A stretch of 64,000 bases of DNA from Patescibacteria group bacterium. GTDB lineage: Bacteria > Patescibacteriota > Patescibacteriia > Patescibacteriales > GWC2-42-12. Within the stretch, counting starts at the first letter, position 1. The number at the start of each line of letters is the position of its first letter. Made by a program: the position numbers and the translations under genes. The notes under the pieces are model-generated. The model did no database searches. It was not told the DNA's origin and was given only the letters and a program-made list of their open reading frames with translations. The stretch lies in contig JAQTVB010000001.1 in NCBI GenBank assembly GCA_028707005.1, forward strand, positions 755 to 64,754, read 5' to 3'. This document shows positions 44,311-58,200 of the stretch, one piece after another.

Positions 44311-44799
44311 TTAATTGCTCACTTGAAAATATTTATCGCTGCCATTCCAGCCCCGGCTACCCTGAAAAATTCCTTTGCCGCCAGCCGGGGTGGGCGCGCT
44401 TAAGCCAGAAAGGCTCACTGCCGCGTCTTTGTTCTCCAAATTGGCATACAAAGCGCACTGGCCAGAATCAGTTACTAGATATTTATAATTGGACGCGGCC
44501 TCTGTGCCGGTCTTGGGGTCGCGAATGTTCTTCGGGATATTGGCGCTATACTGCGGATATTTAGCCGCGTATTCGGCGATCAGCTCGTTTAAATCATACT
44601 CGCCCGCCCCGGCGCCGGGCAATAAACAGCCAAGGCTGAAAAAGCGCCCAATCTCGCTTAAGTCGTTCATTCGCTTGGCGTCGCGCGCTTTGACCATGGC
44701 ACCGCCCAAATAAACAACAGTCAGGCTGGCTAAGACGCCGATGATGGCGATAACCAGTAAAACTTCAATTAGAGTAAAAGCTTTGGTTGATTTGGGCAT
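44311..44799 (-). CDS. Type IV pilin-like protein (prepilin-type N-terminal cleavage/methylation domain KAFTLIEVLLVIAIIGVLA). The ORF continues in frame to 45249 through an AT-rich 150-aa membrane segment; start called at MPKSTK.
   Basis: Class III signal peptide motif; composition break at 44800. Confidence 0.7.
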   Translation of the reverse strand: MPKSTKAFTLIEVLLVIAIIGVLASLTVVYLGGAMVKARDAKRMNDLSEIGRFFSLGCLLPGAGAGEYDLNELIAEYAAKYPQYSANIPKNIRDPKTGTEAASNYKYLVTDSGQCALYANLENKDAAVSLSGLSAPTPAGGKGIFQGSRGWNGSDKYFQVSN

Positions 44800-45330
44800 C
44801 CGTTTTTTATCTCTAAAAATAAAGGTGAAAAGAATAAAAAAAATAATGCAAGGCACTATTGCCGTTCCCCAGAACGACAATTGATATAAAATTAATATGA
44901 TCCATGAATTTGGTAATTTCGCGGCCGAAGACATGAATGAAACAGGTATTATAAATGTACCTATCCCAACCAGTGTTAAAGCACTCACCCGTTTTAGCCA
45001 TAATAAAGATAGCTTGTCTTTTGTAAGTTCAAAAAATATATATATAACAAAATAGATAGCGATGACAATACTATAAGAAAGTACGATATTATCTGATTTT
45101 GTCTTATCATAAATATTAAAAAAATTATACATTACACCCGAAAAAAACATAGCAACTACTATGACAAATTGAATTCTGTTTTCAATTTCCTTGATGATAG
45201 TTTTTTTGTCAATATTTTCGTTACTCATAGTATTCCTTAACTTTACCATTCTTAAACCAATTTTTCAACTTCGCTAAAACACAAAAACACCGTCCCCTCC
45301 TAAACGGTGTTTTGCGTTTTATAAAAAAGG

Positions 45331-45691
45331 TTATTTTAAAAACCTTTTATAAACCAACAACCCGCCTTGGGCTAAAAGCCAGCCAAGCACGGAAAAAACT
45401 GCATACCACGCATACATGGCCCACATTCCCCAACTGATAATTAACAACGGTGCAGCTATAATCAACCGGCACCACCAATATTTTTTGTCTATGAATATAA
45501 AAGAAAATAATGAAGCAAACAAAGAAATAGATTAAATTGGGCCCTATTATAAATAGATTTGGTGATATAGCTTCAGGTCGCATTGCTACAACATACAAGT
45601 CGCCAAATATTTTTCTCGTAAACCAAGCTATTATGGTTGACGCTATAAAAATTAAAATAATTTTTATAACCATTTGAATGTTTTTACTCAT
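45331..45691 (-). pseudogene. Two overlapping small membrane-protein ORFs in different frames (45347-45691 and 45331-45522) within an AT-rich segment; possible frameshifted small membrane protein
   Basis: Both frames show TM-like stretches; AT-rich composition (about 27% GC). Confidence 0.25.
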
Positions 45692-46007
45692 AAAGTTATT
45701 CTTAATATTTTACTACTTTTAATGAGTAAGCTATATCCGTCTATAGTTATTTTATTCTTTTTCTTTAAATTCTCCAAATGTTTAATAAACGAATTAGGAT
45801 CTCGCTCGATAAATTCTACTCGCTGAGCCGACAGTTTGGCCAACCGGCGCCGAACCATAGTTAACTAGCCCTTGGCTTTGATTTTACCGCCCAAAACAAA
45901 AAACCATGCCGCGGCAAAAATTGGCATGATAAATAAAAACAGAACCCTCCTGCTCATAAAAATTTTAGTTAAGAATTATTTTAATAATTATTAATCAAGC
46001 AAAATAT

Positions 46008-47189
46008 TTACATCATCTTCTTCCGAATGAACGCCGGGATGCCGAGCTCGTCGTCTTCTTCCGCGGCGGCCGCGCCTTTTTTTTGCGCCGGTTCGGCTTG
46101 AGCCTGCTTTAAGGGCGAAATCTTGCTCTTTTTCTTGGTTTGGTCTCTTTTATCTTTTTCCTCTTCCACCGAGGCAATATAAGGATTGGGCGTATAGACT
46201 CTTTCTCCGGCCAAACCTTCGCTTACGCCCACGCGCCGGCCGTCAAAACCGGTCGCTACCACCGTAACTTTTATTTCATCTTTATATTTATCGTCAATCA
46301 CGGCTCCGAAAATGATCTTGGCGTCCTCATCGGCCGAAGAAGTAATCACTTTGGCTGCTTCATTAACTTCATGCATGGTAAGATTCGGCCCGCCCACGAT
46401 CGTAAAGAGCACGCCGCGCGCGCCCTCAACCGACATCTCTAGGAGCGGCGAACTGATTGCGGCCTTGGCCGCTTCAATCGCCTTGTTTTCTCCCGAGGCC
46501 TGGCCGATGCCCATCAAGGCCGAACCGGCGTTAGCCATCACCGCTTTAACATCGGCAAAATCCACGTTGATGAGCGCCGGGATGGTAATAATTTCCGAAA
46601 TGCCTTGCACGCCCTGCCTTAAAACTTCGTCCACGACCATAAACGCGTCCAAGAGCGTGGTTTTCTTATCAATCACTTGCAATAATTTATCGTTGGGAAT
46701 AGTAATAATGGCGTCAACCTTGTCGGCCAGTTCGGCCAGCCCCCGCTCGGCGATATTTTTTCTCTGCGCGCCTTCGAAAGAAAACGGCTTGGTCACTACG
46801 GCAACGGTCAAAGCGCCCAAATCGCGGGCGATCTCTGCCACGATCGGCGAAGCGCCCGTGCCGGTTCCGCCGCCCAAACCGCAAGTAATAAAAACCATAT
46901 CCACATCTTTTAGAACGTCTCTGATTTCATTCTGGCCCTCTTCGGCGGAACGTTTGCCTAATTCCGGATTCATGCCCGCGCCCAAGCCGCGGGTAATGGT
47001 TTTCCCGATATGAATTTTCTTTGAAGCCTTATTCATGTGCAGGGCCTGAACGTCAGTGTTAACCGCGATAAACTCCACGCCCCGGATGCCGCAATCAATC
47101 ATGCGGTTGACCGCACTGCCGCCCGAACCGCCCACGCCGATCACTTTTATTTTCGCAAAGGTTTCCACCGATGGTTTTACTTCTGCCAT
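46008..47189 (-). CDS. ftsZ: Cell division protein FtsZ
   Basis: GVGGSGGSAVNRM, GGGTGTGASPIVAE tubulin signature. Confidence 0.98.
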   Translation of the reverse strand: MAEVKPSVETFAKIKVIGVGGSGGSAVNRMIDCGIRGVEFIAVNTDVQALHMNKASKKIHIGKTITRGLGAGMNPELGKRSAEEGQNEIRDVLKDVDMVFITCGLGGGTGTGASPIVAEIARDLGALTVAVVTKPFSFEGAQRKNIAERGLAELADKVDAIITIPNDKLLQVIDKKTTLLDAFMVVDEVLRQGVQGISEIITIPALINVDFADVKAVMANAGSALMGIGQASGENKAIEAAKAAISSPLLEMSVEGARGVLFTIVGGPNLTMHEVNEAAKVITSSADEDAKIIFGAVIDDKYKDEIKVTVVATGFDGRRVGVSEGLAGERVYTPNPYIASVEEEKDKRDQTKKKSKISPLKQAQAEPAQKKGAAAAEEDDELGIPAFIRKKMM

Positions 47190-47204
47190 ATTTGAGAATT
47201 ACGA

Positions 47205-47228
47205 ATTACCTGCCTGCCAGACAGGCAG
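47205..47228. promoter_or_regulatory. GC palindrome cctgcctgccagacaggcagg about 20 nt upstream of ftsZ start codon
   Basis: Same CCTGCC/GGCAGG arms as sites at 18607 and 22551. Confidence 0.4.
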
Positions 47229-47442
47229 GCGAATTATGAATCTCTAATTTTCTCACCCCATGATTCATTATTCCTGTTTATATCTTAACCTATACTTAAA
47301 AATATAGCAAGTGGTTTGATTCTACCGACTTTTCCACAGGGTGTATAAATCTTTTATACACCTGGCTTTTGCCCCCTTGATAAAGGGGGTTAGGGGGATT
47401 TTATTTTGTCATTTCCGCGCAGGCGGGAATCCAAAATTTATT

Positions 47443-48141
47443 TTACTTCTGCCCTTTTATTTTTTCCAATCTCTCGACAATATTCTTTAAGTCATTAACA
47501 TCTTGATTACTATATTTTCCTTTATTATATTTAAATTTATTGAGGATAGCTTCTACCTTATCAAAAATATTATTTAAAATAGTAGAATCCAGATTACATT
47601 TATTGTCAGTATAAAGGTAACTCATGGCTTTCCTAAACCTATCTAAGAGCTCGCCCATTTCCTCGTTTTGTTTAAACTTAGAATAGTCGTGATATTGATC
47701 ATTAACCAGGCTTAGTATATAACTGTATCGATATCTGTCACGCTCATATTCATCCTCTAACATACTCCATCTTTTTGGATGTCTTAATTTTCTTAATACT
47801 CTAGCTTCGATCTCTAATATACGTCCCTTGTTGGTCCCGATATCTTTTGCAATTTCTTCAGGTGTTTCTCCTAAGAAGAATCTTCGCCTTATTACCTCTT
47901 TTTCTTTTTCGCTTGATAAAGTTTCAATCATTATTTCCAGTTCTTCGCGTAGTAACGAATCTTCCGAAACATCTCTCCTGTCTAATTTGGCCCGCCGTTG
48001 CATTTCTCTAAATGCTTCTTTTTCTTTTTCCGACACCCTGTCCTCTCTTTTTATTGGTTCGATCTCTTCGCCTTCAACCGCTATCTCTCCTTCACTGCCC
48101 AACACTTCTTCCTCCTTTGGCATAGTTTCAAACTTCGGCAT
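47443..48141 (-). CDS. Hypothetical protein with sigma-70 region-4-like HTH (RRFFLGETPEEIAKDIGTNKGRILEIEARVLRKLRHP), acidic N-terminus, ~100-aa C-terminal domain; located between ftsA and ftsZ
   Basis: Region 4.2-like motif recognised by eye; no regions 2 or 3. Confidence 0.6.
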   Translation of the reverse strand: MPKFETMPKEEEVLGSEGEIAVEGEEIEPIKREDRVSEKEKEAFREMQRRAKLDRRDVSEDSLLREELEIMIETLSSEKEKEVIRRRFFLGETPEEIAKDIGTNKGRILEIEARVLRKLRHPKRWSMLEDEYERDRYRYSYILSLVNDQYHDYSKFKQNEEMGELLDRFRKAMSYLYTDNKCNLDSTILNNIFDKVEAILNKFKYNKGKYSNQDVNDLKNIVERLEKIKGQK

Positions 48142-48267
48142 AACATTATTTTTAAACCTCCTCTTAATCCCCTCTTTCGTAAGGAGGGGGCCTTAAATCC
48201 CCGCTCGGCTAACGCCTCGCCGCCCCTTTATTAAAGGGGCCTTAAATCATGATTCATGATTCATTCT

Positions 48268-49533
48268 TCACGGTATCAGCGAACTAAACCACTTCTTAAC
48301 TTTTTCCACAGTCTGGCCTACCGCGCCGCCGAGCCGCCAATTAATCTTTGAACCTGATTTATGCCCGGACAATTGATTGCCCCAGGCTAGAAGCCCCAAG
48401 GCGGTCAAATAATCTATGTCATTCACTTTATCAATGGCCGAAGAGACATTATTGTTAGCGCCTAAACAAGCGGGCAGGCGCAAACGATTTTTCGCGGTTT
48501 CCACAATATCATTAAGCTTAGCGCCGCCGCCGATTAAAAATACTCCGGCCGGGAGCATACCCGAGCGGTCTATCTTTTTCAATTCATCGTCAATTTTATC
48601 AAAAATTTCTTCCACCCGCGCCTCAATGATTTCCGCCACGTATTTTTTGGAAATTATCATTTTTTCGTCAGCCATGTTTTCTTCTCTGGCCAGATCGGAA
48701 ATATCCACCTCGTCCTTCTTGGTAAATTTATCTCCCCGGGAAGATCCGTATTCCAGCTTGATCCGCTCCGCCAAATTAATCGGGCATCTTAAGCCGATCG
48801 CCACATCGGAAGTAATGTGCTCGGAGCCGATAGGAATGACCGCGGCATGGAGCAATTCGCCTTCTTCAAAAACGGCCAAGCTGGTAGTGGCGGCGCCGAT
48901 ATTGATTAAAGCCGCGCCCAATTCTTTCTGCTTCGGGGAAATTACCACTTCAGCGGCGGCCAAAGGCGATAAAACCAAATCATTGATTTCCAGGCCGGTG
49001 CGATAAATCGCCTTGGTCAAATTCTTTATCTGGCTGGAAAATCCCTGAATAATCAAAGTTTCAACTTCCAGCCTTACGCCGGTCATGCCGATCGGGTCTT
49101 TGATATCCGCCTGGTTATCCACGTTAAACTTAACCGGAATGACATGGAGAATTTCGTAATTTGGCGGCACGGATAAAGCCTGCGCCGCTTCCACGGCGCG
49201 GTTGACATCGTCTTCGGTAATTTCATTATCGCTCCGGCCGACTGCTACCACGCCATGGCTTTTTTCGCACTTCAAATTCGGGCCGTTGATGCCGACCCAG
49301 ACATTATTCAAAGGCACGCCGATCAGTCTTTCGGCTTTTTCCAGGCAGGCGGAAATGGCCGAGGTGGCGTCTTCAATGCTATTGACCGAACCGCGGTTAA
49401 TCCCTTCGGCCGGGGCGGTAACCGCGCCTAAAATATGCAATTGTTCACCGGTTTCACCGGCCGCTCTTTGGCCGACTGCCAGTCTGATGGCTGTTGAGCC
49501 GATGTCTAAACCGGCGATGATGTTATCTTTCAT
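48268..49533 (-). CDS. ftsA: Cell division protein FtsA
   Basis: GLDIGSTAIRLAV actin-fold phosphate-1 motif; 421 aa. Confidence 0.95.
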   Translation of the reverse strand: MKDNIIAGLDIGSTAIRLAVGQRAAGETGEQLHILGAVTAPAEGINRGSVNSIEDATSAISACLEKAERLIGVPLNNVWVGINGPNLKCEKSHGVVAVGRSDNEITEDDVNRAVEAAQALSVPPNYEILHVIPVKFNVDNQADIKDPIGMTGVRLEVETLIIQGFSSQIKNLTKAIYRTGLEINDLVLSPLAAAEVVISPKQKELGAALINIGAATTSLAVFEEGELLHAAVIPIGSEHITSDVAIGLRCPINLAERIKLEYGSSRGDKFTKKDEVDISDLAREENMADEKMIISKKYVAEIIEARVEEIFDKIDDELKKIDRSGMLPAGVFLIGGGAKLNDIVETAKNRLRLPACLGANNNVSSAIDKVNDIDYLTALGLLAWGNQLSGHKSGSKINWRLGGAVGQTVEKVKKWFSSLIP

Positions 49534-49649: not shown

Positions 49650-50039
49650 TTAAAACTGTCCAAATAATTTATACGCCTGCGGCCAAAAAATGATCAGGCC
49701 GATGATTAGCGCGCCCAGCGATGATAGTAAAACCGCGGCCGCCATAATATCTTTAATCTCTTTTACGTAAGTATTGATCCTCGGTTTTAAGACGTCGGTA
49801 ATCCTTTCCACCGCGCTGTTGGCGGTTTCCGCGACCAGCACCAGCGCGATTGCCAGAACGAGCAAAGCCCAGCTCACCGGGTCAATCTTAAAATAAATCC
49901 CGAAAATTACGACCACCAGGCTTAGGCTCGCCTGGATTTTTAAATTTTGCTCTTCATGAAAAATTTTTAACAAGCCCTTAAAAGCATAGCTAAAACTTCT
50001 CACCAGCCTGCCAATTCTTATCATAAATTTATTCAACAA
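49650..50039 (-). CDS. dgkA: Diacylglycerol kinase / undecaprenol kinase family (DgkA)
   Basis: 3 TM, ETANSAVERI motif; 129 aa. Confidence 0.75.
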   Translation of the reverse strand: MLNKFMIRIGRLVRSFSYAFKGLLKIFHEEQNLKIQASLSLVVVIFGIYFKIDPVSWALLVLAIALVLVAETANSAVERITDVLKPRINTYVKEIKDIMAAAVLLSSLGALIIGLIIFWPQAYKLFGQF

Positions 50040-50042
50040 TTT

Positions 50043-50474
50043 TTAATTACAAAATTTTAAATTCTCCATAAACTGCTCCCCCATCTCCATCATCTTCTGT
50101 CTGTCTTTTTCCGTTTCATCGTCATATCCCAGCAAATGCAGCAGCCCATGGACCAGGATAAAAATCAACTCCTCGCGAGCAGAATTGCCGAATTGACCGG
50201 CTTGCCTTTTTATCTGGTCGTAGTCGATTATCAGCTCGCCCCAAAGCTCGCCTTCTCCGGCAAAAGACAGGATGTCGGTCGGTTCGCTTTTATCGCGATA
50301 TATCCGGTTCAACTTTTTAATTTCCGCGTCGCTTACAAAAGCAATGGACAGTTCTTCGCCTTTAACTTGATATTCCGCAACAAATTTATTTACCAGCCCT
50401 TTAATAAAGCTTGAATTAATCTTTTTCTTGGTCCGATTGTTAATCTCAATTCTCATGTATTTCCCGTTATTCAT
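50043..50474 (-). CDS. ybeY: Endoribonuclease YbeY
   Basis: HGLLHLLGYDDE H3xH5xH metal site. Confidence 0.9.
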   Translation of the reverse strand: MNNGKYMRIEINNRTKKKINSSFIKGLVNKFVAEYQVKGEELSIAFVSDAEIKKLNRIYRDKSEPTDILSFAGEGELWGELIIDYDQIKRQAGQFGNSAREELIFILVHGLLHLLGYDDETEKDRQKMMEMGEQFMENLKFCN

Positions 50475-50480
50475 TATTCA

Positions 50481-51509
50481 TTACTGTTTTAAGGTAAAAG
50501 ACTTAACCATCATGTTGAAAATATCAATGTAATCAAGGATATTGTTCTCGCCGGGATTATAGGTAATGGTAAAAATATAATTTTGCCCCGCATCCATTAA
50601 GTAAGCGGTCAAGCCGTCTAAATTTTTTATCCCCTGCCAGCCCGCTCCGGCCAAGCGGTCGGCGTCATTAATGACGCTAACCCCCAGTTGGTCCAAATAC
50701 CACTGGTCAAGCGTTGCTTTAGCCTCATTAGCTTGGACAATAATCCCGAAAAATTGGTTGTCATCGGTTTTAAACATTATTGAATCGTCCCCACCGCTCA
50801 AACTCATCTGCCAGGCGCTGGGATACAACACGATATATTTATAGGTATTGTTTTCATAAAGCGAAATCGCGGGATTATCAATTAATTTGCCCGAGCCGGC
50901 CGGATTATATAAATTCATCACTTCGTCTCCGTCTAAATAACTGTCACCATCCGTATCCGGAGAAGAAGTGGCCGTGCCCAATAAAAATTCTTCCGCGTTA
51001 GCCAGGCCGTCCGCGTCGCTATCAAGCGCAGGGATCAAGCCAATTGACGTTTCCGGCTCAACCGTTTCCAGAGTGCTCGTGGCCGTCGTTGATGTAGCCG
51101 CTGTTTCTTCTGTCGATAAGGCGGCTGTTTCGGTTGAGGTGGTTGCCAGGTCGGTTTGATTTTGTTCCGCTTCAGCCGCGTTTTCAGCCGGCGGGTTGGT
51201 TTCAACCGCCGTAAGCTCCGTCTTAACGGTAACGGCCGGCTCTTTTAATAAATAGAAATACAAACCAGCCGAAACCGCGGCCAAAAATAACACGCCGCCG
51301 CCGACAATCATCAAACCGGCGGTTTTGGCGCTGTCGGCTTTTATCGGTTTATGGCGAAAACGCTCCGGCATGGTATGAATGGCAATATTGTCTATCTGAA
51401 TCTGTTTTTCTTTCACCGGCTCGGCCGCGGCCAATTCCTCGCCAGCCGGCTGTTCCGCCGGCTTTTTCTTAAAAAAACTTAAGGGGTTAAACATAATATT
51501 GATTTTCAA
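50481..51509 (-). CDS. Membrane-anchored protein with TSP3-like Ca-binding repeats (DSDADGLANAEE...DTDGDSYLDGDEV) and C-terminal beta domain
   Basis: TM near N-terminus; DxDxDG repeats. Confidence 0.55.
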   Translation of the reverse strand: MKINIMFNPLSFFKKKPAEQPAGEELAAAEPVKEKQIQIDNIAIHTMPERFRHKPIKADSAKTAGLMIVGGGVLFLAAVSAGLYFYLLKEPAVTVKTELTAVETNPPAENAAEAEQNQTDLATTSTETAALSTEETAATSTTATSTLETVEPETSIGLIPALDSDADGLANAEEFLLGTATSSPDTDGDSYLDGDEVMNLYNPAGSGKLIDNPAISLYENNTYKYIVLYPSAWQMSLSGGDDSIMFKTDDNQFFGIIVQANEAKATLDQWYLDQLGVSVINDADRLAGAGWQGIKNLDGLTAYLMDAGQNYIFTITYNPGENNILDYIDIFNMMVKSFTLKQ

Positions 51510-51520
51510 ATTCCATAGTA

Positions 51521-52231
51521 TTATTTAATTTCCAATAATTTTCCCGCCCCCTTGGGATTATAGCCGTTTTTGACTTCGTCGCCATCCTTATAGCCGTCGC
51601 CGTCAGTATCGGGGATTAGAGGATCGGTATTGTAAACTTTGGTTTCTTCCCGATCGGTTAAACCATCCTGGTCAGTATCCGCATCGGTAACGCTGGTGCC
51701 ATAAGCGGCTTCTTCTTCATCGGTTAAGCCGTCGCCGTCAGTATCCTGGGGTTCGGTTATAACCTGCTCCACCGGTTCAATCGGGGCCGTATTCGCCTCC
51801 TCGGCTGACGGCGAAGTTGCCTGGTTGGTTTCACCGCCGCTTGTCTGTTCTTCCACTATCGTGCTATCAGCCGCCTGCTTGCCGCCGAACGCCAGCTTCA
51901 AGCCGAAATAGCCTCCGGCAATGACCACGACCACGCCGCCAAACAATAAGCCAAACACCAGCATTTTATTGCTTCTCCAGCCCACGGCCGGCGGCACTAC
52001 GGTGCCGCGCGGCGGCTCGCCGGCTGGCCGAGAGCGGAAAACTTCTGGTTTGGCGGTTTTATCCATTTCGGCAAAAATGTCTTCAGCTTTGACCGGCCCG
52101 GCTCCGGCGCCGTTCTTAACTCCAGCCGCGTTTTCCGGGACTGGCCTTACGGGCGCCTGGCTCAACGGCCTGGCGCCAGACTGCGGCATCGCTTGATTGC
52201 GCTCATCCACTTTGTCTAATTCGTCAAACAT
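51521..52231 (-). CDS. Membrane-anchored protein with three TSP3-like DTDGDG repeats
   Basis: TM plus DTDGDGLTDEEE / DTDQDGLTDREE / DTDGDGYKDGDE. Confidence 0.55.
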   Translation of the reverse strand: MFDELDKVDERNQAMPQSGARPLSQAPVRPVPENAAGVKNGAGAGPVKAEDIFAEMDKTAKPEVFRSRPAGEPPRGTVVPPAVGWRSNKMLVFGLLFGGVVVVIAGGYFGLKLAFGGKQAADSTIVEEQTSGGETNQATSPSAEEANTAPIEPVEQVITEPQDTDGDGLTDEEEAAYGTSVTDADTDQDGLTDREETKVYNTDPLIPDTDGDGYKDGDEVKNGYNPKGAGKLLEIK

Positions 52232-52251: not shown

Positions 52252-55200
52252 TTATCTTTCATCAGGCATCGCTTGATTTGCGTTCAGGCTATCGGCCGTT
52301 GCCGCTGTTCCTTGTATGCGGCCGCTTTCATTGCCTTGAGCGTCCAAAGCGGAAACCGCAAAATAATAGGTAGTGCCTGAAGCCAAACCGGTGATAGCGG
52401 TGCTGCAAAGAGCGTTAGAACATTTACTCTTATCCACCTTAACCGACGCGCCGGGAATGACCGCTCCACTGCCGTCGCGGCTGGCGCCATAATATACTTT
52501 ATAGCTTACCGTATCGTCAATGTTGGGCGCCCAGGCAACCGTTGTCTGGTTTGAGCCGACCGTAACCGACAAATCTCGCGGCGTGGCCGGAGCCAAAGTA
52601 TCGGCCGGCGTGGTGCTGGCCTCATTGGAGTAACCGCTTTCTATGGCCTTGTTATTATACGCGGTAACGGCAAAGTAATAAACTTGTCCATTAACCAGGC
52701 CGGTCACTGTATAATTAGTCGCCGCGCTCTTAATATCAATGTTTTTATTATATTGGCCGCTGGCCGTGCCATAATATAATTTATAGCCGGCAGCCGATCT
52801 GGCCGGATTCCATGAAGCGCTTACTTTCCCGCCCGCCCGCAAGGCATTGACGCTTAATCCGCTGGCTACGTCCGGCGCAACACCTCTAAAAAAATATAAT
52901 TCTTTTACAATATCATCCGCCGCTGAAGCGCCGCGAATGATTGCGCTTTCCGACAGCGCCGGCAAATCATCGGCTGTGCCGGCTTCACCGGCATCGCGGC
53001 AGTAATGCAATGAAAAATTGGTGTTATAGCAATCGCCTCCGCCGGCGGCGCAATTTCCGGCCAGGTCTGTCCATGGCGCCCAAGTGCCGTCAGCCTTAAC
53101 CACCGGCCAGGGGTTATCGCACAAAAATACGTAAATTTCCGCCTGGCCTTCTTTAACCGCGCCTTTGGTTCCCATCACCGAGTCTTCGGCGATGGTCGCT
53201 TTGGCGTCAAGCAACGTGCTGGCATCTTTAATATTCTGCGCCACAATCACCACGTTATCGGTTGCGTTTTCTCCGGCTTTAAACTTAACCACCGTTTGAT
53301 CCTCGATCGCCCAGCTCCACTCCCAGCTATACAAACCCGCGATCGAACTAAGCGCCTGCCCGTCCGCGGAGTAGCCGGTCGCCCGAAAAATTTTATCGCT
53401 ATCCTGGACGGTATCGTAATCCGCGTTCTGGCTGTTATCATCTTTAGTATCATTAACGCTGGTCTTGAATAAATAGCTCGCCGGATTAACCGCTACCGAA
53501 GCCAAGCGGCAAATCCCGCTGTCAACGTCAGAACTCTCTTTAGTGGTGAAATACCAAATTTTCGCGTTTTTAAAGTTTTGACCGTTGAAAACCGCCGGAT
53601 TTTCATAGGCGTCGCCGCCCAGAGGCGCGCCAACGCTATTCATACCCACGCCGCTCGCGGCCAGCACGCCTTCTTTGATCGCGTCGGACGTGTCCGCGTC
53701 TCCCTTAATGATCACATAATATCTTCTGCCGGCATCCAGCATTTTTCTCAATTTATATTCTACCACGGTTTTATTGGCAATATTATAGCCATCAACCGCT
53801 CCCGGAACAACGCAATAATTTCCATTTAAAGCCAAAGCTTCTTGAGCAAAAAGTTTATTTACTAAAGGCGCCTTAGCCAGCCAGGCTTTAATCCTGCCCG
53901 CCAAACTGGGCCGATACGCGGCGGTTAAATAGGTGGTGCCGGACGGGCAGGGGTCGGCGCCGTAAGATCCGGCCACCATAATATTATTCGCGAAAGAATC
54001 CGGCCGCATATACTGGTTAAAAGTGGCTTGAATCAGAGCGTTGCGGCAGATGCCGGGCCCCATGGGCTTGGCGCTCTCCACGCTCGGCCGGGCATGGCAG
54101 CAGGCATCGGCGCCGCAGCCGGTCGTGGCCGCGCTGCCGCAGTCGCCATCCTTCGTACAGCCGCAACACAGTCCGCGCTTATCGCCGGAGCAGGGTGATT
54201 GGTTGGCTTTACAGGTTAACAACGTATTGATGGCCGTACATTTATCCGGATTAGCCGCCGGATCGCAGCAGCAAGTGCCGCAGTCATTAGGCGGATTCTG
54301 CGGCCCCGTGCCATCCTCATTCAAGCAGTTAAAGCCGGTGCAGATATCAGTATCGCATCGTGGTTGGGTCGTAGAATAATTAAAGCAGGTTTGGCCAAAG
54401 GCCGGCGGCAAAGTACAGCTGGCGCTGCAGCCGGCCGCAGTCCGATAGCTGGGCAAAGTCGTTTTGTAAATCGCCGAACCGCAAGTAGCGGTGCTGTTAT
54501 CGCAAGGATAATATGAACAATAAGCGTTAGTGTCGCCGCTTACGCCGGAGGAAACCGTTTCCGTGCCGCCGCGGCAAGCATTGCCGCCCATGGCGTCAAC
54601 GCAGCAGGTGCCGACGCCAAGCTTGGTGCAGTTGCCGCTGCCGCTAAGCCCCGAGCAGTCCTGGCAAATGCCGTCACCGCCCGCGCCGGCAGTATCGCAG
54701 AATTTACCGCTGGCGTTTTTGCAATTGCAAGCGCGGTTGCTGGCCGCTTGATTAACTGTGCCGCCAATTTTTACCGTACAGCCGGTGCAATAACCCAAAG
54801 TATTGGTATCGGCATTTCTGTCGCTGCCGCAATTGCCTTGGCATTTTAAAGGATAACAGCAGTCTTGCGCCGAATAGTCGAGGCGGCAGCAGCATTCGCA
54901 AGCTCCGGCGCTGGCTTTCTGGCATTTGCCGCTTACACAGCTGGCGCCGCTCGCGCAGACATTTTTGTCAATCAGGCATTGTTTAGCCTGACAAATTGAG
55001 CCGCTGGGGCATACGTTCAGTTCGCAGACAGAGGCATCGCCCGCCTGACCGCCGGCTCTGATGATGCTGCACCAGCCATTAGCGTCTAAAAAAGTTCCGC
55101 CCGGACAAGGGTTGCCGCCGGAATTAATCTGCAAAATTTTCGTGCTATAACCGCTTACGGTCCGGCATTGCTGTTCGGCAAAGACGATGTCGTCAAATTG

Positions 55201-58200
55201 GATTTTCTCATTTTCCGTCTGCCGGTAATTTACCAGTAAAACCAGCTTAACGTATTTTGTACCCATTCTAAAAGCATTAGGACCATTGCCAAAGCTTTGT
55301 CCGGTGATGCCGCCGCGGTTATAAGCTAAATTCTCCCATTCCCAGGGAACGGCGGAATTTACGGCCGCGGCATATAAATAAGTATTGCCGCCATAATGAT
55401 TTTTCACAACAACCTTTGCGCCAGGTTTATTGATTTCATCAAGCACCTGCTGGGGCAAAGCATGATTTAAATTAATAACTTTACTGCCGTTAATGCCGGT
55501 GCCGTTATAAGCGCCTCGATTGAGTTCAACGGAGTTGAAACAGCTGGAATTGGCCGGGTTGGTCGTGCCGCAAGGCGTAGGATACCAGGAAAAAACATAA
55601 TCAACTCTATGGCTGGTATCGCCGTCATAATAGAAACCCAGGCTTCTAACGCCGGCCACGGTTGTCTGGTCGTTCCAGCCGCTGATGGCTTCCTTAACAA
55701 CGATCTGGGTATCAGAAACGCTCGCAATCGTAGCGTCGCTACCCTTCCTTAAGACTTCTTCAGCGCTGATTAATTTTTGATTTTCATCATACGGCGCCAG
55801 GCCGAAATACAGTCTTGATTTGAATGGCACGCAGCTTTCTCCGTTCGCGGCATCGCAGATATTAGCATCGTTAGTGCAAGTTTTATAGGCTGAATTGGCA
55901 ATCACTTCCGTGCCATTCTTCACGCAGACTTTGCCCGTGCCGGCTGATTTGAATCTGCCAAAAATATAATAGGTGGTATTTATATTAATGGGCACAAAAT
56001 CAGTGGAAAAAAGGTTGTGGAATCCGTTTTGCGCGTATATTTTATTAGAGCCTTCGGCAACGATGCCGATTTTAAAATTAGAAGCCGGCTCGGTGTCAAA
56101 ATCGCTGGCGGCATCCGGCTCTTCGGCGTCAAATTTCATTGACTCGCTGGCCGCCAAATCATCGCACGTCCTATCTTTCAGCCTGCATTTATTCAAAGTT
56201 TGATCATAAACGCATTGACCACTGCCGCAAATCACCGGATAGGCGGCATGGCAATAATCATCGCCGCAATCCCCGGCCGCTGTTAAGCCGCCGGCGTATG
56301 ACGAGCACAAGCCCAGCGAATTCGGGCAGTAATAGCCGCCCGCGCATTGGTTGCCATAACCGGCGCAGGAATCTGGAGCAGTGCAGACGGTTGGAGTGGC
56401 GGAATTATTATCAGTATCTCTGCAATAAGAATTATCTTTGCAACATGAGCCATCGCCGCATTGGGCGGGCGAATTGGCGGGACAATCATCACACGTTCCA
56501 TCGTAATTGCATTCACCGACACTGCAGCATCTAAAGGTAGCGCCGACAGCAAGCGGGTTGGGAATATTGCATTTTTCCTGATTGACGCAATCTTTCGGCT
56601 GGCAAATACAGCTTGCGGTATCGCAGTATGTGGTGGCATGATCGCATTGATCTTTATTAATATCGCAACTGCCGGCTTTGCCATCTTTATAGCAAGGACC
56701 GCCGGCAAGCGATTTGCAGATACACTCATCAGTATTGCAAACGGAAATCGCCAGATCGCACTGGTTGTCATCGCTACTGCAATCGCCGGCCACGCCATCC
56801 TGATAGCAAGGATCGCCGATAGCCGGATGCTCCGCGCAGGTGCAAGACCTGGGCTGGCAAACCAAACCCGCGGCTTCGCACCTGGATTGACTGGCGTCGC
56901 AAGTTCCGCTTACCGCGCCGTTATAGCAAGGATCGCCCACGCTGGGCAGATAAGTCGTGCTGAAAGTCCATTGATAGACGCTGGACTTATATTGAGGAAA
57001 GCAAACATCTTGTTCTGTTTTTCCTCCGGTTGTGCTTTTGCATTGCCCGGCGTAGGGCGTGCCGGTTGAACAGCACAGGCTGTCCGCGCCGCAATCGCCG
57101 GTTTGTTTGCAGATGCCAACGGTAAAATTCAGGCCATTGCCGACCGCTTCCTTGCTCACGCCATGATCTATTAAAGTTTTAACGGCGCGCACCGGACCGG
57201 TTACCGCTTGCTGATGCACCGTGGTTTCGGCTTTGTCCGGCTTGGGATTGCCTTGAGCCTCGGTGTCAATTCCCCAAAAAGCAATCGCGCTGCCGGATTG
57301 ATTATGATTAAGCTGAAATCTAACCTGGCTATTCGCGTCTTGATCGCCAAAATACTCGCCCCATAAACTTACCTGGCTATTCCTTTGCCCCATGATCGGG
57401 TCAAGCTTGCATAAGCTGGGCGCGAGCGGCAGGGTTGAATCGGCTGTAAATGCCGCCGGGCTCAAATCACTGCTATCTATTTCCCAAAATTGGCCGCCGC
57501 TTTTGGCGATTTTCATGTAAATTACATAATCTCCATTAGCCAGTCCGGCCGGCGCTTTGACGATCACCTGCTTGTCGCTCCAGACTGAATCAGCGCAAAC
57601 TTCCGGAAAAGTATAACTGGCTTTTTTGTCGTTAAGCGCGGGGCCGAAATAAATTTCGCTAGTTCCTTTAGCGGCGCCAAAACCTTGGCCGCGGATGGTA
57701 ATATATTGCCCGGCCGCGCCTTGAACCGGATCAAAAGAGGAAATCAGCGGACCGGCATAAGGCTCGGCGGTTTTCTGAAACTCCAAATAATTACTTAAAA
57801 CTTTTTTAGCTTCATCAGCCACAAAGCTGGTGGTTTTGCCGGTTTGAATATTAGGCACTTGGGCAGCTCCCTGCTTGCCTCTCACATCTGTGAATACTGA
57901 ACTTAAGGCCGTGGTGCTGGCCGACCAATCGCCAAAATAAGCTTGATTGTCTTTAGTCAATCCGACTCCGCCATAAGTAATAGTATCATTCATTTTCCCG
58001 CTCGCCGGCGCCAGCTGGCACAATCCGGGCCGGGCGATCGTATTAATCAAAAAATCATCCAGGCGCGGATTAGTAAGGCTGTCATCGGAAAAACCGCTGG
58101 CCGCTTCCACTTTAATCGGCCCGGTAGCCGCGCCAACCGGCACTATCGCGATAATCTGCGTGTCGCTCCAGACATGAGCGCATTGGCTGTTGCCCGCGCC

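What the first reader, a model, noticed from the sequence alone, without database searches (positions are those of the whole stretch)
47443..48141. Sigma-70 region-4-like HTH gene wedged between ftsA and ftsZ
ftsA and ftsZ are adjacent in almost all bacteria. Here a 232-aa ORF separates them. It has an acidic N-terminus, a clear region-4.2-like helix-turn-helix (RRFFLGETPEEIAKDIGTNKGRILEIEARVLRKLRHP) and an unrelated Asn/Lys-rich C-terminal domain. It lacks sigma regions 2 and 3, so it is not a complete sigma factor. It could bind -35-like DNA as a division-linked regulator or act as a sigma mimic or anti-sigma.
Basis: partly seen in the sequence, partly recalled or inferred. Interest (0 to 1): 0.65.

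Follow-up and report, generated by a model that had tools for sequence, protein, structure and literature searches.

The report
Sigma-tail gene inserted between ftsA, ftsZ
A small, fast-evolving accessory gene, copied from the tail end of the main bacterial sigma factor and fused to a domain of unknown function, sits on a 0.9-kb insert between the division genes ftsA and ftsZ in one small clade of Patescibacteria; it is a real oddity, but probably dispensable rather than a core division regulator.

Summary
A 232-aa ORF (47443-48141, minus strand) lies between ftsA and ftsZ and passes Pfam's Sigma70_r4 threshold. It has no sigma regions 2 or 3.

It belongs to a rare Patescibacteria-only family of about 15 clusters among 1.8 billion representatives. 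The family has four parts:
- an acidic N-terminus;
- a conserved N-motif;
- a sigma-A-like region 4, with homology running from the RpoD 3.1/3.2 boundary to the RpoD C-terminus;
- a family-specific four-helix bundle.

In the window it sits on a clean ~905-nt insert bounded by two similar hairpins. Of 80 FtsZ loci from related genomes, none carries it, including two close relatives with 88-90% FtsZ identity. Three to four close metagenomic relatives do carry it at the same site. Their copies are only 33-45% identical, while FtsA and FtsZ are 87-92% identical, and two copies look decayed. A distant lineage has it at ftsA|ftsZ inverted, next to an IS200-like transposase. Other members sit inside unrelated operons or beside ftsW/rodA.

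Linkage to division genes is therefore non-random but not general. Every copy is much AT-richer than its neighbours.

Function is unknown. My best guess is an RNA-polymerase-docking sigma-4 surrogate. A plain DNA-binding regulator or a hitchhiking cassette remain live alternatives.

The parts
47443..48141 (-). orfX coding sequence, 232 aa: a sigma-4 domain protein of a small Patescibacteria-only family
   Evidence: ORF list. Sigma70_r4 at 33.1 bits against a gathering score of 24.1. Family alignment A2 of 14 members. dN/dS below 1. GC 0.35 and GC3 0.33, the second-lowest GC3 of 49 window ORFs.
48061..48141 (-). Residues 1-27: the family start motif MPKFE followed by a variable, disordered acidic insert
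   Evidence: Alignment A2. pLDDT below 50. Low conservation, 0.22.
47956..48060 (-). Residues 28-62: conserved N-motif (EPIxxEDxVSxxEKEAFxEMQR...ISED). hhalign places it on the RpoD region 3.1/3.2 boundary and linker ([20 protein letters not shown]...)
   Evidence: hhalign aligns orfX 28-131 with RpoD 256-363 of 365, probability 98%. The NCBIfam RpoD_Cterm model matches residues 25-130. This part is among the best conserved of the family, 0.62.
47773..47955 (-). Residues 63-123: sigma region 4 (4.1 plus the 4.2 helix-turn-helix, ending in ...LRKLRHP), closest to primary (group 1) sigma factors
   Evidence: Pfam PF04545. A PDB profile search returns only sigma-A/RpoD region 4. Foldseek top hits are SigA r4 chains at 38-44% identity. 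pLDDT 85-93.
47446..47772 (-). Residues 124-232: family-specific Asn/Lys-rich C-terminal four-helix bundle with the motif KLDSxTFNxICDEIKxIL
   Evidence: AF2 model of the domain alone: pLDDT 79, pTM 0.71, four helices. No significant PDB match, best E 0.36, to designed bundles. No Pfam or PADLOC family. Found only inside this family.
47363..48267 (.). The ~905-nt insert relative to the closest orfX-less relatives (L003, L004). It runs from the base after the ftsA stop codon to just before the conserved palindrome
   Evidence: MAFFT alignments of the ftsA-ftsZ spacer.
48222..48239 (.). Left bounding palindromic hairpin GCCCCTTTATTAAAGGGG, inside a ~70-nt hairpin-rich stretch. That stretch carries a 13-nt direct repeat GGGGCCTTAAATC at 48187-48199 and 48236-48248
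   Evidence: the repeat finder D5, I3 and D7. The motif occurs only at these two places in 64 kb, against 0.28 expected. The RNA fold of the leader has z = -2.8.
47371..47388 (.). Right bounding palindromic hairpin GCCCCCTTGATAAAGGGG. On the plus strand it reads as a terminator-like site facing the gene. The identical 24 nt (TCCCCCTAACCCCCTTTATCAAGG) follow the 33%-identical homologue in L098
48157..48165 (-). Shine-Dalgarno-like AAGAGGAGG, 15 nt upstream of the ATG. The preceding CCCCTC...GAGGGG hairpin (about 48169-48189) has counterparts in L100 and L102, where the stem includes the SD itself
   Evidence: Sequence. Alignment. Palindrome scan. Fold. A regulatory role is inference.
47340..47362 (.). 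Conserved perfect palindrome GGTGTATAAA-N3-TTTATACACC just downstream of the insert and upstream of the ftsZ promoter. It is part of the host locus, not of the insert
   Evidence: Unique in the window. Present in all close relatives with or without orfX, and absent from the other ~75 FtsZ loci.
47282..47310 (-). Retained ftsZ promoter-like element TTGCTA-17 nt-TAAGAT, conserved in position in L003, L004, L100 and L102
   Evidence: Read from the alignments. It scores below the tool's 9-of-12 threshold, so this is inference.
48268..49533 (-). ftsA, the upstream flank
   Evidence: Pfam FtsA and SHS2_FTSA.
46008..47189 (-). ftsZ, the downstream flank
   Evidence: Pfam Tubulin and FtsZ_C.

Best explanation
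orfX is an accessory, rapidly evolving paralogue of the C-terminal third of the primary sigma factor. It keeps the region 3.2-like linker and the complete region 4, and adds a family-specific four-helix bundle.

It arrived on a ~0.9-kb AT-rich insert that is bounded by hairpins and shows no recognisable promoter. The insert sits directly behind the ftsA stop codon, and the ftsZ promoter stays intact downstream. The gene is therefore most likely made from ftsA read-through transcripts.

My preferred mechanism is inferred, not shown. The conserved N-motif and region 4.1/4.2 scaffold dock the protein on RNA polymerase where sigma-A region 4 normally sits, at the beta-flap. That would make it a sigma-4 surrogate or competitor that dampens or redirects -35-dependent initiation. 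The fast-changing HTH surface and C-terminal bundle would carry the lineage-specific part of the function.

The identity and history of the element are well supported. The mechanism is a best guess.
For: Identity:
- r4 passes Pfam's threshold in all 14 aligned members.
- Homology to RpoD runs from EPVSLE (the 3.1/3.2 boundary) to the RpoD C-terminus.
- The structure model and Foldseek give only sigma-A r4.

History:
- There is a clean 905-nt insertion relative to L003 and L004.
- L100, L102/L103 and probably L098 have the same site and orientation, with FtsA and FtsZ 87-92% identical but orfX 33-45% identical.
- The orfX-bearing genomes group together in an FtsA+FtsZ tree.
- dN is 0.45-0.54 for orfX against 0.05-0.10 in the flanks, and omega is below 1.

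Expression: no promoter-like or terminator-like site lies on the gene strand between ftsA and orfX.

Mechanism:
- The N-motif and region 4.1 are the best conserved parts (0.62; 50-67% identity within the clade). The HTH (29-41% within the clade) and the C-terminal domain (22-26%) diverge fastest.
- The four copies from the window's clade have quite different recognition helices: NKGRILEIE, SAGRAQQIG, SKKEFKQDE and GGARTQQIY. The nearby palindrome hardly changes. This argues against a conserved DNA target and for a conserved protein partner.
- No sigma-2 partner gene is adjacent in any of 11 contexts, so it is not half of a split sigma.
Against: - There is no direct evidence of RNA polymerase binding.
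- The conserved residues of region 4.1/4.2 are also the fold's hydrophobic core, so their conservation does not prove flap binding.
- Most family r4 domains keep a net positive charge like RpoD r4 (+2 to +4), and several keep R-x-R-Q in the recognition helix. Both are compatible with DNA binding.
- A free competitor would have to beat sigma-A's own tethered region 4.
- The gene is lost, truncated or C-terminally scrambled in close relatives, so whatever it does is dispensable.
- Similarity of the N-motif to region 3.2 rests on low-confidence columns of one hhalign alignment.
Confidence: 0.35

Rival explanations
1. orfX is an ordinary sequence-specific DNA-binding transcription factor. The sigma-4 HTH reads -35-like or inverted-repeat DNA and the C-terminal bundle oligomerises the protein. 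It regulates neighbouring genes, here ftsZ.
For: - The HTH is intact, with net positive charge in most members.
- Weak KorA, GerE and other HTH regulator hits occur in some members.
- NCBI already names it a DNA-binding protein.
- It lies next to ftsZ in two distant lineages and next to ftsW/rodA in two loci.
- A perfect palindrome with two inverted TATACA (-35-like) hexamers lies between orfX and the ftsZ promoter. A shorter TGTGTAT-TC-TATACA lies between the divergent orfX and ftsZ in L083.
Against: - The palindrome is equally conserved in L003 and L004, which lack orfX at this site.
- The recognition helices of the clade's copies differ radically while the palindrome is almost invariant.
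- No shared palindrome is found near other family members.
- The window protein has lost the RpoD DNA-contact positions equivalent to R588 and Q589 (NKGRILEIE). The residue mapping is from my own knowledge of E. coli sigma-70.
- A regulator of an essential gene would not be expected to be absent, truncated or hypervariable among near relatives.
Confidence: 0.25
2. orfX is a hitchhiking or selfish cassette with little or no host function. It would be a mobile or recombination-spread insert that lodges in spacers of conserved operons, is tolerated there, and decays.
For: - There is presence/absence polymorphism among close relatives.
- GC3 is 0.26-0.42 against 0.54-0.65 for the neighbours in most host loci; in the low-GC loci L093 and L101 the neighbours' GC3 is 0.20-0.42. 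In the window it is a compositional outlier.
- It is bounded by two similar hairpins that occur nowhere else in 64 kb.
- The L083 copy is flanked by identical REP-like hairpins next to an IS200-like Y1 transposase.
- The L098 copy carries an 18-codon ftsA 3' remnant and the identical right hairpin into a different context.
- It lies in the same orientation inside operons at rpsG|..., MacB ATPase|permease and ftsA|ftsZ.
- The L100 copy is truncated to 126 aa and the L102 C-terminus is scrambled.
- The ftsA-ftsZ spacer also takes other insertions, in L061, L027 and L054.
Against: - Omega is below 1, and strongly conserved motifs are shared by very distant lineages.
- There is no transposase or Y1 homologue in the 64-kb window.
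- There is no nuclease or recombinase domain in the protein.
- It occupies the same intergenic site in two lineages with only 42% FtsA+FtsZ identity. An unspecific hitchhiker does not explain that.
Confidence: 0.2
3. orfX is an arms-race module. It would be a sigma-4 decoy that soaks up phage proteins targeting sigma region 4 or the beta-flap. Conversely, it could be a mobile-element-derived factor that takes over host RNA polymerase.
For: - Divergence is very fast and concentrated on exposed surfaces of the HTH and the C-terminal domain.
- Distribution is patchy and composition is AT-rich.
- One member sits in an island with Fic, a type I restriction HsdR, SNase, NUDIX and a SocA/Panacea toxin-antitoxin.
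- Sigma-family proteins do occur in defence systems: MzaA matches nine members, through r4 only.
- Phage proteins that bind sigma-A domain 4 exist, for example G1 ORF67 (PDB 4g6d), which appears among the Foldseek hits.
Against: - There are no full-length relatives in 50,697 phage records or in IMG/VR.
- There is no PADLOC match beyond r4.
- Omega estimates are below 1, although dS is saturated.
- Only one of about 11 contexts looks like a defence island.
Confidence: 0.07

Closest known systems
Primary sigma factor RpoD/SigA, region 3.2 to region 4 (Pfam PF04545 Sigma70_r4)
   Same: Sequence and predicted fold of residues ~63-123 are those of group-1 sigma region 4, including the ...ALRKLRHP(S)R signature. 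Identity to solved SigA r4 chains is 38-44%. Homology extends back to the EPVSLE motif at the 3.1/3.2 boundary.
   Different: - It has no regions 1.1, 1.2, 2 or 3.1, so it cannot open promoters or act as a sigma factor.
- It has a shorter 4.1-4.2 loop.
- It has a helical N-motif where RpoD has the sigma finger.
- It has an extra ~110-residue four-helix bundle.
- It is an accessory gene, AT-rich and hypervariable.
Divided sigma factors and sigma-4 analogues: B. subtilis SigO-RsoA two-subunit sigma (table in PMC10141391); phage T4 gp55 plus gp33, the latter a beta-flap-binding sigma-4 analogue (Twist et al. 2011, cited in PMC9429907)
   Same: These are precedents for a polypeptide that supplies only the sigma-4 function, or only its docking site on the beta-flap.
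   Different: - Those systems have a partner that carries sigma-2. No such gene is adjacent to orfX in any of 11 contexts, and there is none in the 64-kb window.
- gp33 is not homologous to r4, whereas orfX is.
Small r4-like or LuxR/GerE/KorA-type HTH regulators
   Same: They are a small helical DNA-binding module of the same HTH superfamily. Five members give weak KorA hits and two give weak GerE hits.
   Different: The best matches by far are to genuine sigma-70 r4. The GerE and KorA scores are below threshold. The domain order (HTH first, helical bundle last) and the conserved acidic N-motif are not those of LuxR/GerE proteins.
IS200/IS605-type and REP/RAYT elements (Y1 transposase, hairpin ends)
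   Same: - The gene is bracketed by two similar palindromic hairpins in the same orientation.
- It shows presence/absence polymorphism.
- In L083 it is adjacent to a Y1_Tnp gene with 4-5 copies of one REP-like hairpin.
- L061 also has a Y1 transposase in its ftsA-ftsZ spacer.
   Different: - There is no Y1 transposase in the window.
- The hairpin is not repeated elsewhere in 64 kb.
- The hairpin sequences differ between lineages.
- orfX itself has no transposase features.

Membership tests
Sigma70_r4 domain (Pfam PF04545) | HMM score at or above the gathering threshold of 24.1 bits | tested here: met
   33.1 bits, E = 4e-8, residues 77-121. All 14 aligned family members match, best E 4.5e-18.
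Complete sigma-70 family sigma factor | Region 2 (PF04542), which binds core polymerase and the -10 element | tested here: not met
   No r2 hit at E <= 1 or in any family member. All NCBIfam sigma models score far below their cut-offs, for example TIGR02937 at 32.5 against 42.9. hhalign aligns only RpoD 256-363 of 365.
Complete sigma-70 family sigma factor | Region 3 (PF04539) in group 1-3 sigmas | tested here: not met
   No PF04539 hit. Only the last residues of 3.1 and the 3.2 linker align, at low column confidence.
Two-subunit (split) sigma factor | A co-encoded partner that supplies the sigma-2 domain | tested here: not met
   The neighbours in 11 contexts carry no sigma domain. tblastn of RpoD against the window hits only orfX. 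The rest of the genome was not available.
LuxR/GerE-type regulators (PF00196) | GerE HMM above threshold | tested here: not met
   Only 2 of 14 members match, with best E 0.022.
Anti-sigma factors | A recognised anti-sigma domain, or demonstrated binding to a sigma factor | tested here: inconclusive
   No anti-sigma Pfam family matches. The C-terminal fold matches nothing. Binding cannot be tested with these tools.
MZA defence system sigma factor MzaA | NCBIfam NF041931 at or above 800 bits; full-length architecture | tested here: not met
   33.3 bits, aligning only to the r4 end of the model, positions 617-712 of 726. The PADLOC MzaA hit also covers r4 only.
IS200/IS605 or REP/RAYT mobile element | A Y1 (HUH) transposase in the element or genome | tested here: not met
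   No Y1_Tnp homologue in the 64-kb window (tblastn). One is present next to the L083 homologue (PF01797, 30.5 bits). The whole genome could not be tested.
IS200/IS605 or REP/RAYT mobile element | Similar subterminal hairpins at both ends, and insertion polymorphism | tested here: met
   The two CCCCTTxATxAAAGGGG hairpins occur only at the two ends of the insert. The insert is absent from L003 and L004. On its own this is not sufficient for membership.
Free-standing homing endonuclease | A nuclease domain (GIY-YIG, HNH, LAGLIDADG or similar) | tested here: not met
   No such Pfam hit. The C-terminal domain is a plain four-helix bundle.
Core dcw (division and cell wall) cluster gene | Conserved presence at this position in related genomes | tested here: not met
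   Absent from all 80 GTDB FtsZ loci. Present only in the window, in L100, L102/L103 and probably L098, and inverted in the L083 lineage.

The most novel reading that the evidence does not exclude
The ftsA|ftsZ junction of this clade hosts a hypervariable RNA-polymerase-directed module, a sigma-4 surrogate or decoy. Its conserved half docks on polymerase. Its fast-evolving HTH and C-terminal surfaces are shaped by conflict with phage anti-sigma proteins or between mobile elements. It spreads as a cassette without a recognisable promoter that lodges inside conserved housekeeping operons, carrying conserved non-coding hairpin ends while the protein diverges to about 35% identity. That would be a previously undescribed class of accessory transcription factor and of gene cassette in the reduced genomes of Patescibacteria.
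Probability: 0.12. Interest if true: 0.75.

Novelty: new variant of a known kind. Interest (0 to 1): 0.42.

Why it matters
Patescibacteria have tiny genomes and few recognisable regulators. A sigma-derived protein encoded inside the ftsA-ftsZ unit would be one of the few handles on how these organisms control transcription or division.

What this analysis shows:
- The gene is not a core division component. It is a rare, fast-evolving accessory family built from the polymerase-docking and -35-reading end of sigma-A.
- If it does dock on RNA polymerase, it would be a cellular, sigma-homologous counterpart of phage tricks such as T4 gp33 or AsiA/MotA.
- The non-coding ends are conserved while the coding sequence is hypervariable, and insertion into conserved operons recurs. 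Both are worth a wider survey.
- If it is merely a decaying hitchhiker, the finding is a curiosity.

Tried and rejected
- **Complete or split sigma factor: rejected.** There is no r2 or r3. No partner gene appears in 11 contexts. There is no other sigma homologue in the window.
- **The conserved palindrome as the orfX operator: considered unlikely.** It is conserved in relatives without orfX, and it stays invariant while the recognition helices diverge. No comparable palindrome lies near other family members.
- **Recent horizontal acquisition inferred from low GC alone: not accepted.** The insert is shared by genomes whose synonymous sites are saturated (dS 1.0-1.8 in ftsA and ftsZ). Every family member is AT-rich wherever it sits, so the low GC may reflect weak selection.
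- **Allele replacement versus vertical fast evolution: not resolved.**
  - WIN and L100 group together in the family tree and share N-terminal DNA similarity.
  - L102 groups with L098.
  - dS saturation blocks a firm answer.
- **Phage origin: no support.** There are no relatives in IMG/VR. Only r4-level hits appear in 50,697 phage records. PHROG hits are generic sigma families.
- **Known RNA elements in the hairpin-rich flanks: none found** in Rfam at E <= 1.
- **Fold of the C-terminal domain.**
  - Foldseek against the PDB gave only generic or designed four-helix bundles.
- **C-terminal domain in other architectures: none found**, within the limits of the word index.
- **Literature:** no paper links Patescibacteria, ftsA/ftsZ and sigma.
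Full report
**1. What is in the sequence**

The window's minus strand carries ybeY (50043-50474), a diacylglycerol kinase gene (49650-50039), ftsA (48268-49533), a 232-aa ORF (47443-48141, here called orfX) and ftsZ (46008-47189).
- orfX passes Pfam's own threshold for Sigma70_r4: 33.1 bits against 24.1, residues 77-121.
- No region 2 or region 3 model matches. Every NCBIfam sigma model aligns only its C-terminal end and scores far below its cut-off.
- The N-terminus is acidic, with net charge -7 over residues 1-62.
- The C-terminal ~110 residues match nothing.

NCBI already lists a 226-aa version as 'sigma factor-like helix-turn-helix DNA-binding protein [Patescibacteria group bacterium]' (P0001). 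The family's N-terminal motif M-x-K-F-E shows that the earlier ATG at 48141 is the likelier start.

**2. The protein and its family**

The word-indexed search found only two real relatives. An exhaustive HMMER search of 1.84 billion representatives found about a dozen more full-length ones of 203-238 aa.

They share four parts (alignment A2):
- a variable acidic start;
- a conserved N-motif, EPISxEDxVSxxEKEAFxEMQR...ISEDPQL;
- a full sigma region 4;
- a C-terminal domain with the motif KLDSxTFNxICDEIKxIL.

Evidence on each part:
- Profile comparison with an RpoD aligns orfX 28-131 to RpoD 256-363 of 365. That runs from the EPVSLE motif at the region 3.1/3.2 boundary to the RpoD C-terminus (probability 98%).
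- PDB sequence and fold searches return only sigma-A/RpoD region 4, at 38-44% identity.
- AlphaFold models region 4 with pLDDT 85-93. It models the C-terminal domain as a four-helix bundle (pLDDT 79 when modelled alone).
- That bundle has no significant PDB match and no Pfam or PADLOC family. It was found only within this family.

The protein is thus a truncated paralogue of the tail of the primary sigma factor with a novel appendage. It is not a sigma factor, and no sigma-2 partner is encoded next to it anywhere.

**3. The insert**

I fetched 80 FtsZ loci from one-per-species genomes.
- ftsA lies directly upstream of ftsZ in nearly all of them. The median spacer is 123 nt in 80 loci (76 of these plus L083, L100, L102 and L103). 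None of the 80 encodes an orfX relative.
- The two closest, L003 and L004, have 88-90% FtsZ and 84% FtsA identity. Against them the window has a clean insertion of about 905 nt. It starts right after the ftsA stop codon and ends just before a perfect palindrome, GGTGTATAAA-N3-TTTATACACC (47340-47362).
- The palindrome and the promoter-like TTGCTA-17-TAAGAT behind it are host features, retained upstream of ftsZ in all members of the clade.
- The insert is bounded by two similar palindromic hairpins at 48222-48239 and 47371-47388. They occur nowhere else in the 64 kb, against 0.28 expected.
- No promoter-like or terminator-like site lies on the gene strand between ftsA and orfX. Co-transcription with ftsA is the simplest reading, but it is inference.
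- orfX has GC 0.35 and GC3 0.33 against 0.56-0.61 in its neighbours. That is the second-lowest GC3 of 49 ORFs in the window.

**4. Relatives at the same site**

| Locus | Copy | FtsA / FtsZ identity to window | orfX identity to window | State of the copy |
|---|---|---|---|---|
| L100 | P0184, 126 aa | 88% / 91-92% | 42-45% | truncated; has lost the C-terminal domain |
| L102, L103 | P0045, 238 aa | 87% / 91-93% | 39-40% | unrelated C-terminal tail that runs into the palindrome |
| L098 | P0043, 234 aa | only an 18-codon ftsA remnant | 33% | full length |

- L100 and L102/L103 carry a homologue at exactly the same site and in the same orientation.
- dN is 0.45-0.54 for orfX against 0.05-0.10 for the flanks. 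dS is saturated (1.0-2.9), so omega is roughly 0.15-0.5: relaxed but below 1.
- In an FtsA+FtsZ tree the orfX-bearing genomes group together, and L003 plus L004 are their sister. One gain or one loss explains the pattern.
- L098 is preceded by only an 18-codon remnant of the ftsA 3' end plus the same AATGAAT..ATGAATCATG spacer motif. It is followed by a 24-nt stretch identical to the window's right hairpin. The gene upstream of the remnant is not ftsA.
- So the non-coding ends can be far better conserved than the protein, and the segment can move with a scrap of ftsA attached.

**5. Relatives elsewhere**

- **A very distant lineage (L083, L001, L002; FtsA+FtsZ 42% identical).** It has ftsA, then an IS200-like Y1 transposase (PF01797, 30.5 bits), then orfX on the opposite strand, then ftsZ. 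Four to five copies of one REP-like hairpin lie around both inserted genes.
- **Other members**:
  - after a GT4 glycosyltransferase and convergent with ftsW/rodA (two loci);
  - between the ATPase and permease genes of a MacB-type transporter;
  - after rpsL-rpsG;
  - after an M50 peptidase;
  - in an island with Fic, HsdR, SNase, NUDIX and a SocA/Panacea module.
- **Chance estimate.** Two independent lineages at one particular spacer out of roughly eight independent contexts, in genomes of some 800 genes (my rough figure for genome size), is about a 1-in-20,000 coincidence. The link to ftsZ is therefore real, but it is not a general property of the family.
- **The spacer as an insertion site.** It also takes other insertions: a Y1 transposase in L061 and unrelated ORFs in L027 and L054.
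- **Composition.** In most loci orfX has much lower GC3 than its neighbours, 0.26-0.42 against 0.54-0.65; in the low-GC loci L093 and L101 the neighbours' GC3 is 0.20-0.42.

**6. How it might work**

Three facts constrain the mechanism.
- The best-conserved segments are the N-motif and region 4.1 (0.62; 50-67% identity within the clade). The HTH including the recognition helix (29-41% within the clade) and the C-terminal domain (22-26%) change fastest.
- The recognition helices of the four copies from the window's clade are quite different (NKGRILEIE, SAGRAQQIG, SKKEFKQDE, GGARTQQIY). Meanwhile the adjacent palindrome is almost invariant and is present without orfX. The palindrome is therefore probably not its operator, and a conserved DNA target is unlikely.
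- The homology to sigma covers exactly the parts that, in holoenzyme, run along the RNA exit path and clamp the beta-flap tip. That is established knowledge of sigma-70 structure. The flap-tip chimeras are among the top fold hits.

I therefore favour a polymerase-docking sigma-4 surrogate or competitor whose variable surfaces carry lineage-specific contacts (confidence about 0.35).

The rivals are:
- a plain DNA-binding regulator (0.25). The domain keeps a positive charge in most members, and HTH proteins are usually DNA binders;
- a tolerated, decaying hitchhiker cassette (0.2);
- an arms-race decoy or take-over factor (0.07).

None of these can be settled by sequence analysis.

**7. Comparison with known systems and novelty**

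- **Membership.** It is a member of the Sigma70_r4 domain family. It fails the tests for a complete sigma factor, a split sigma, LuxR/GerE, MzaA, a homing endonuclease and a core dcw gene. The IS200/REP resemblance (hairpin ends, polymorphism, a transposase next to one homologue) is partial. There is no transposase in the window and no further hairpin copies.
- **Functional precedents.** These are the two-subunit sigma SigO-RsoA (PMC10141391) and T4 gp33, a beta-flap-binding sigma-4 analogue (cited in PMC9429907).
- **Literature.** I found no paper describing this family or a sigma-like gene between ftsA and ftsZ in Patescibacteria.
- **Classification.** I class it as a new variant of a known kind: a known domain in a new, rare architecture and an unusual, partly conserved genomic position.

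**8. Verdict**

Interest is moderate (0.42).
- Points in favour: the location is eye-catching and the family is undescribed.
- Points against: the gene is accessory, patchy, decaying in close relatives and of unknown function.
- Most novel reading still allowed: a conflict-driven, operon-hitchhiking RNA-polymerase module (probability about 0.12).

Noticed in passing
window 47340-47362; also L003 4885-4903, L004 3858-3876, L102 5711-5729, and a variant in L100: A perfect 10-3-10 palindrome GGTGTATAAA-N3-TTTATACACC lies about 25-35 nt upstream of the ftsZ promoter-like element. It is conserved in all five to six genomes of this clade, with or without orfX, and absent from about 75 other Patescibacteria FtsZ loci. 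Each arm holds a -35-like TATACA. It could be the operator of an unknown ftsZ regulator, or an RNA hairpin between ftsA and ftsZ.
   Followed up: partly
window 47441-47453 and 47175-47187: The exact 13-mer GGCAGAAGTAAAA occurs twice in the window: at the orfX stop codon and at the ftsZ start codon, in different frames. Only 1 of 100 shuffles gave two matches. It is not shared by L102's orfX end. It may be a recombination relic or chance.
   Followed up: partly
L098 332-452 and 1158-1181: A homologue only 33% identical to orfX is preceded by an orphan 18-codon ftsA 3' end (...DWFKSLIP*) behind a non-FtsA ORF. It is followed by 24 nt identical to the window's right hairpin. The non-coding ends travel with the cassette and are conserved far better than the protein.
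   Followed up: partly
L083 1650-2810; L002 290-890: One REP-like hairpin (CTTGGAGGCAAGGCCTCCAAG) occurs 4-5 times around the orfX homologue and the adjacent IS200-like Y1 transposase. One copy lies in frame inside the transposase ORF. L083 lacks 137 nt that L002 has exactly at one hairpin, which suggests hairpin-mediated rearrangement.
   Followed up: partly
L061 2071-3465; L027 4082-5001; L054 3133-4091: The ftsA-ftsZ spacer has taken other insertions in other Patescibacteria: a membrane protein plus a Y1 (RAYT-like) transposase in L061, a 295-aa unknown protein in L027, and about 960 nt in L054. The site seems permissive or favoured for insertions.
   Followed up: partly
L094 150-659; proteins P0122 and P0060: L094 has a stand-alone 169-aa protein with an RNA polymerase alpha C-terminal domain (PF03118, 56 bits) next to a Y1 transposase, on the contig that also carries an orfX homologue. 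Remote hits include proteins that appear to fuse sigma region 4 to an alpha-CTD-like helix-hairpin-helix; this was read by eye and no domain search was run. Fragments of polymerase subunits may be a recurrent kind of accessory protein.
   Followed up: no
window 47195-47275 and 48245-48267: The motif AATGAATCATG (or near copies) occurs right after the ftsA stop and again upstream of ftsZ. It is next to a GC-rich hairpin CCTGCCTGTCTGGCAGGCAGG (about 47215-47235) that L003 and L004 lack. The window has 9 matches at up to 1 mismatch against 1.7 expected. These look like small hairpin or MITE-like insertions in the spacer.
   Followed up: partly
window 44750-45950: There is a second AT-rich stretch (GC 0.26-0.38) just downstream of ftsZ. 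It covers the N-terminal membrane half of a 312-aa protein whose prepilin N-methylation motif sits at residues 154-176 (PF07963), and a 114-aa membrane ORF with no family.
   Followed up: no
window 52252-60015: A 2587-aa Cys-rich secreted or surface protein, with repeated CxxC-type modules and fibronectin-like C-terminal repeats, lies four ORFs upstream of ftsA (51521-52231, 50481-51509, ybeY and the diacylglycerol kinase gene lie between).
   Followed up: no
L003, L009, L011, L013 and other CAZ.../CAY... records: Many MAG records titled 'uncultured Gammaproteobacteria', 'Saccharibacteria' or 'Bdellovibrionales' carry FtsZ and FtsA 58-88% identical to this Patescibacteria window, with Patescibacteria-like synteny. 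The record titles look like unreliable taxonomic labels.
   Followed up: no
window 48124-48141: The NCBI protein record (P0001, 226 aa) starts at the second Met. The family-wide M-x-K-F-E start motif and the SD-like AAGAGGAGG favour the upstream ATG at 48141, giving 232 aa.
   Followed up: yes
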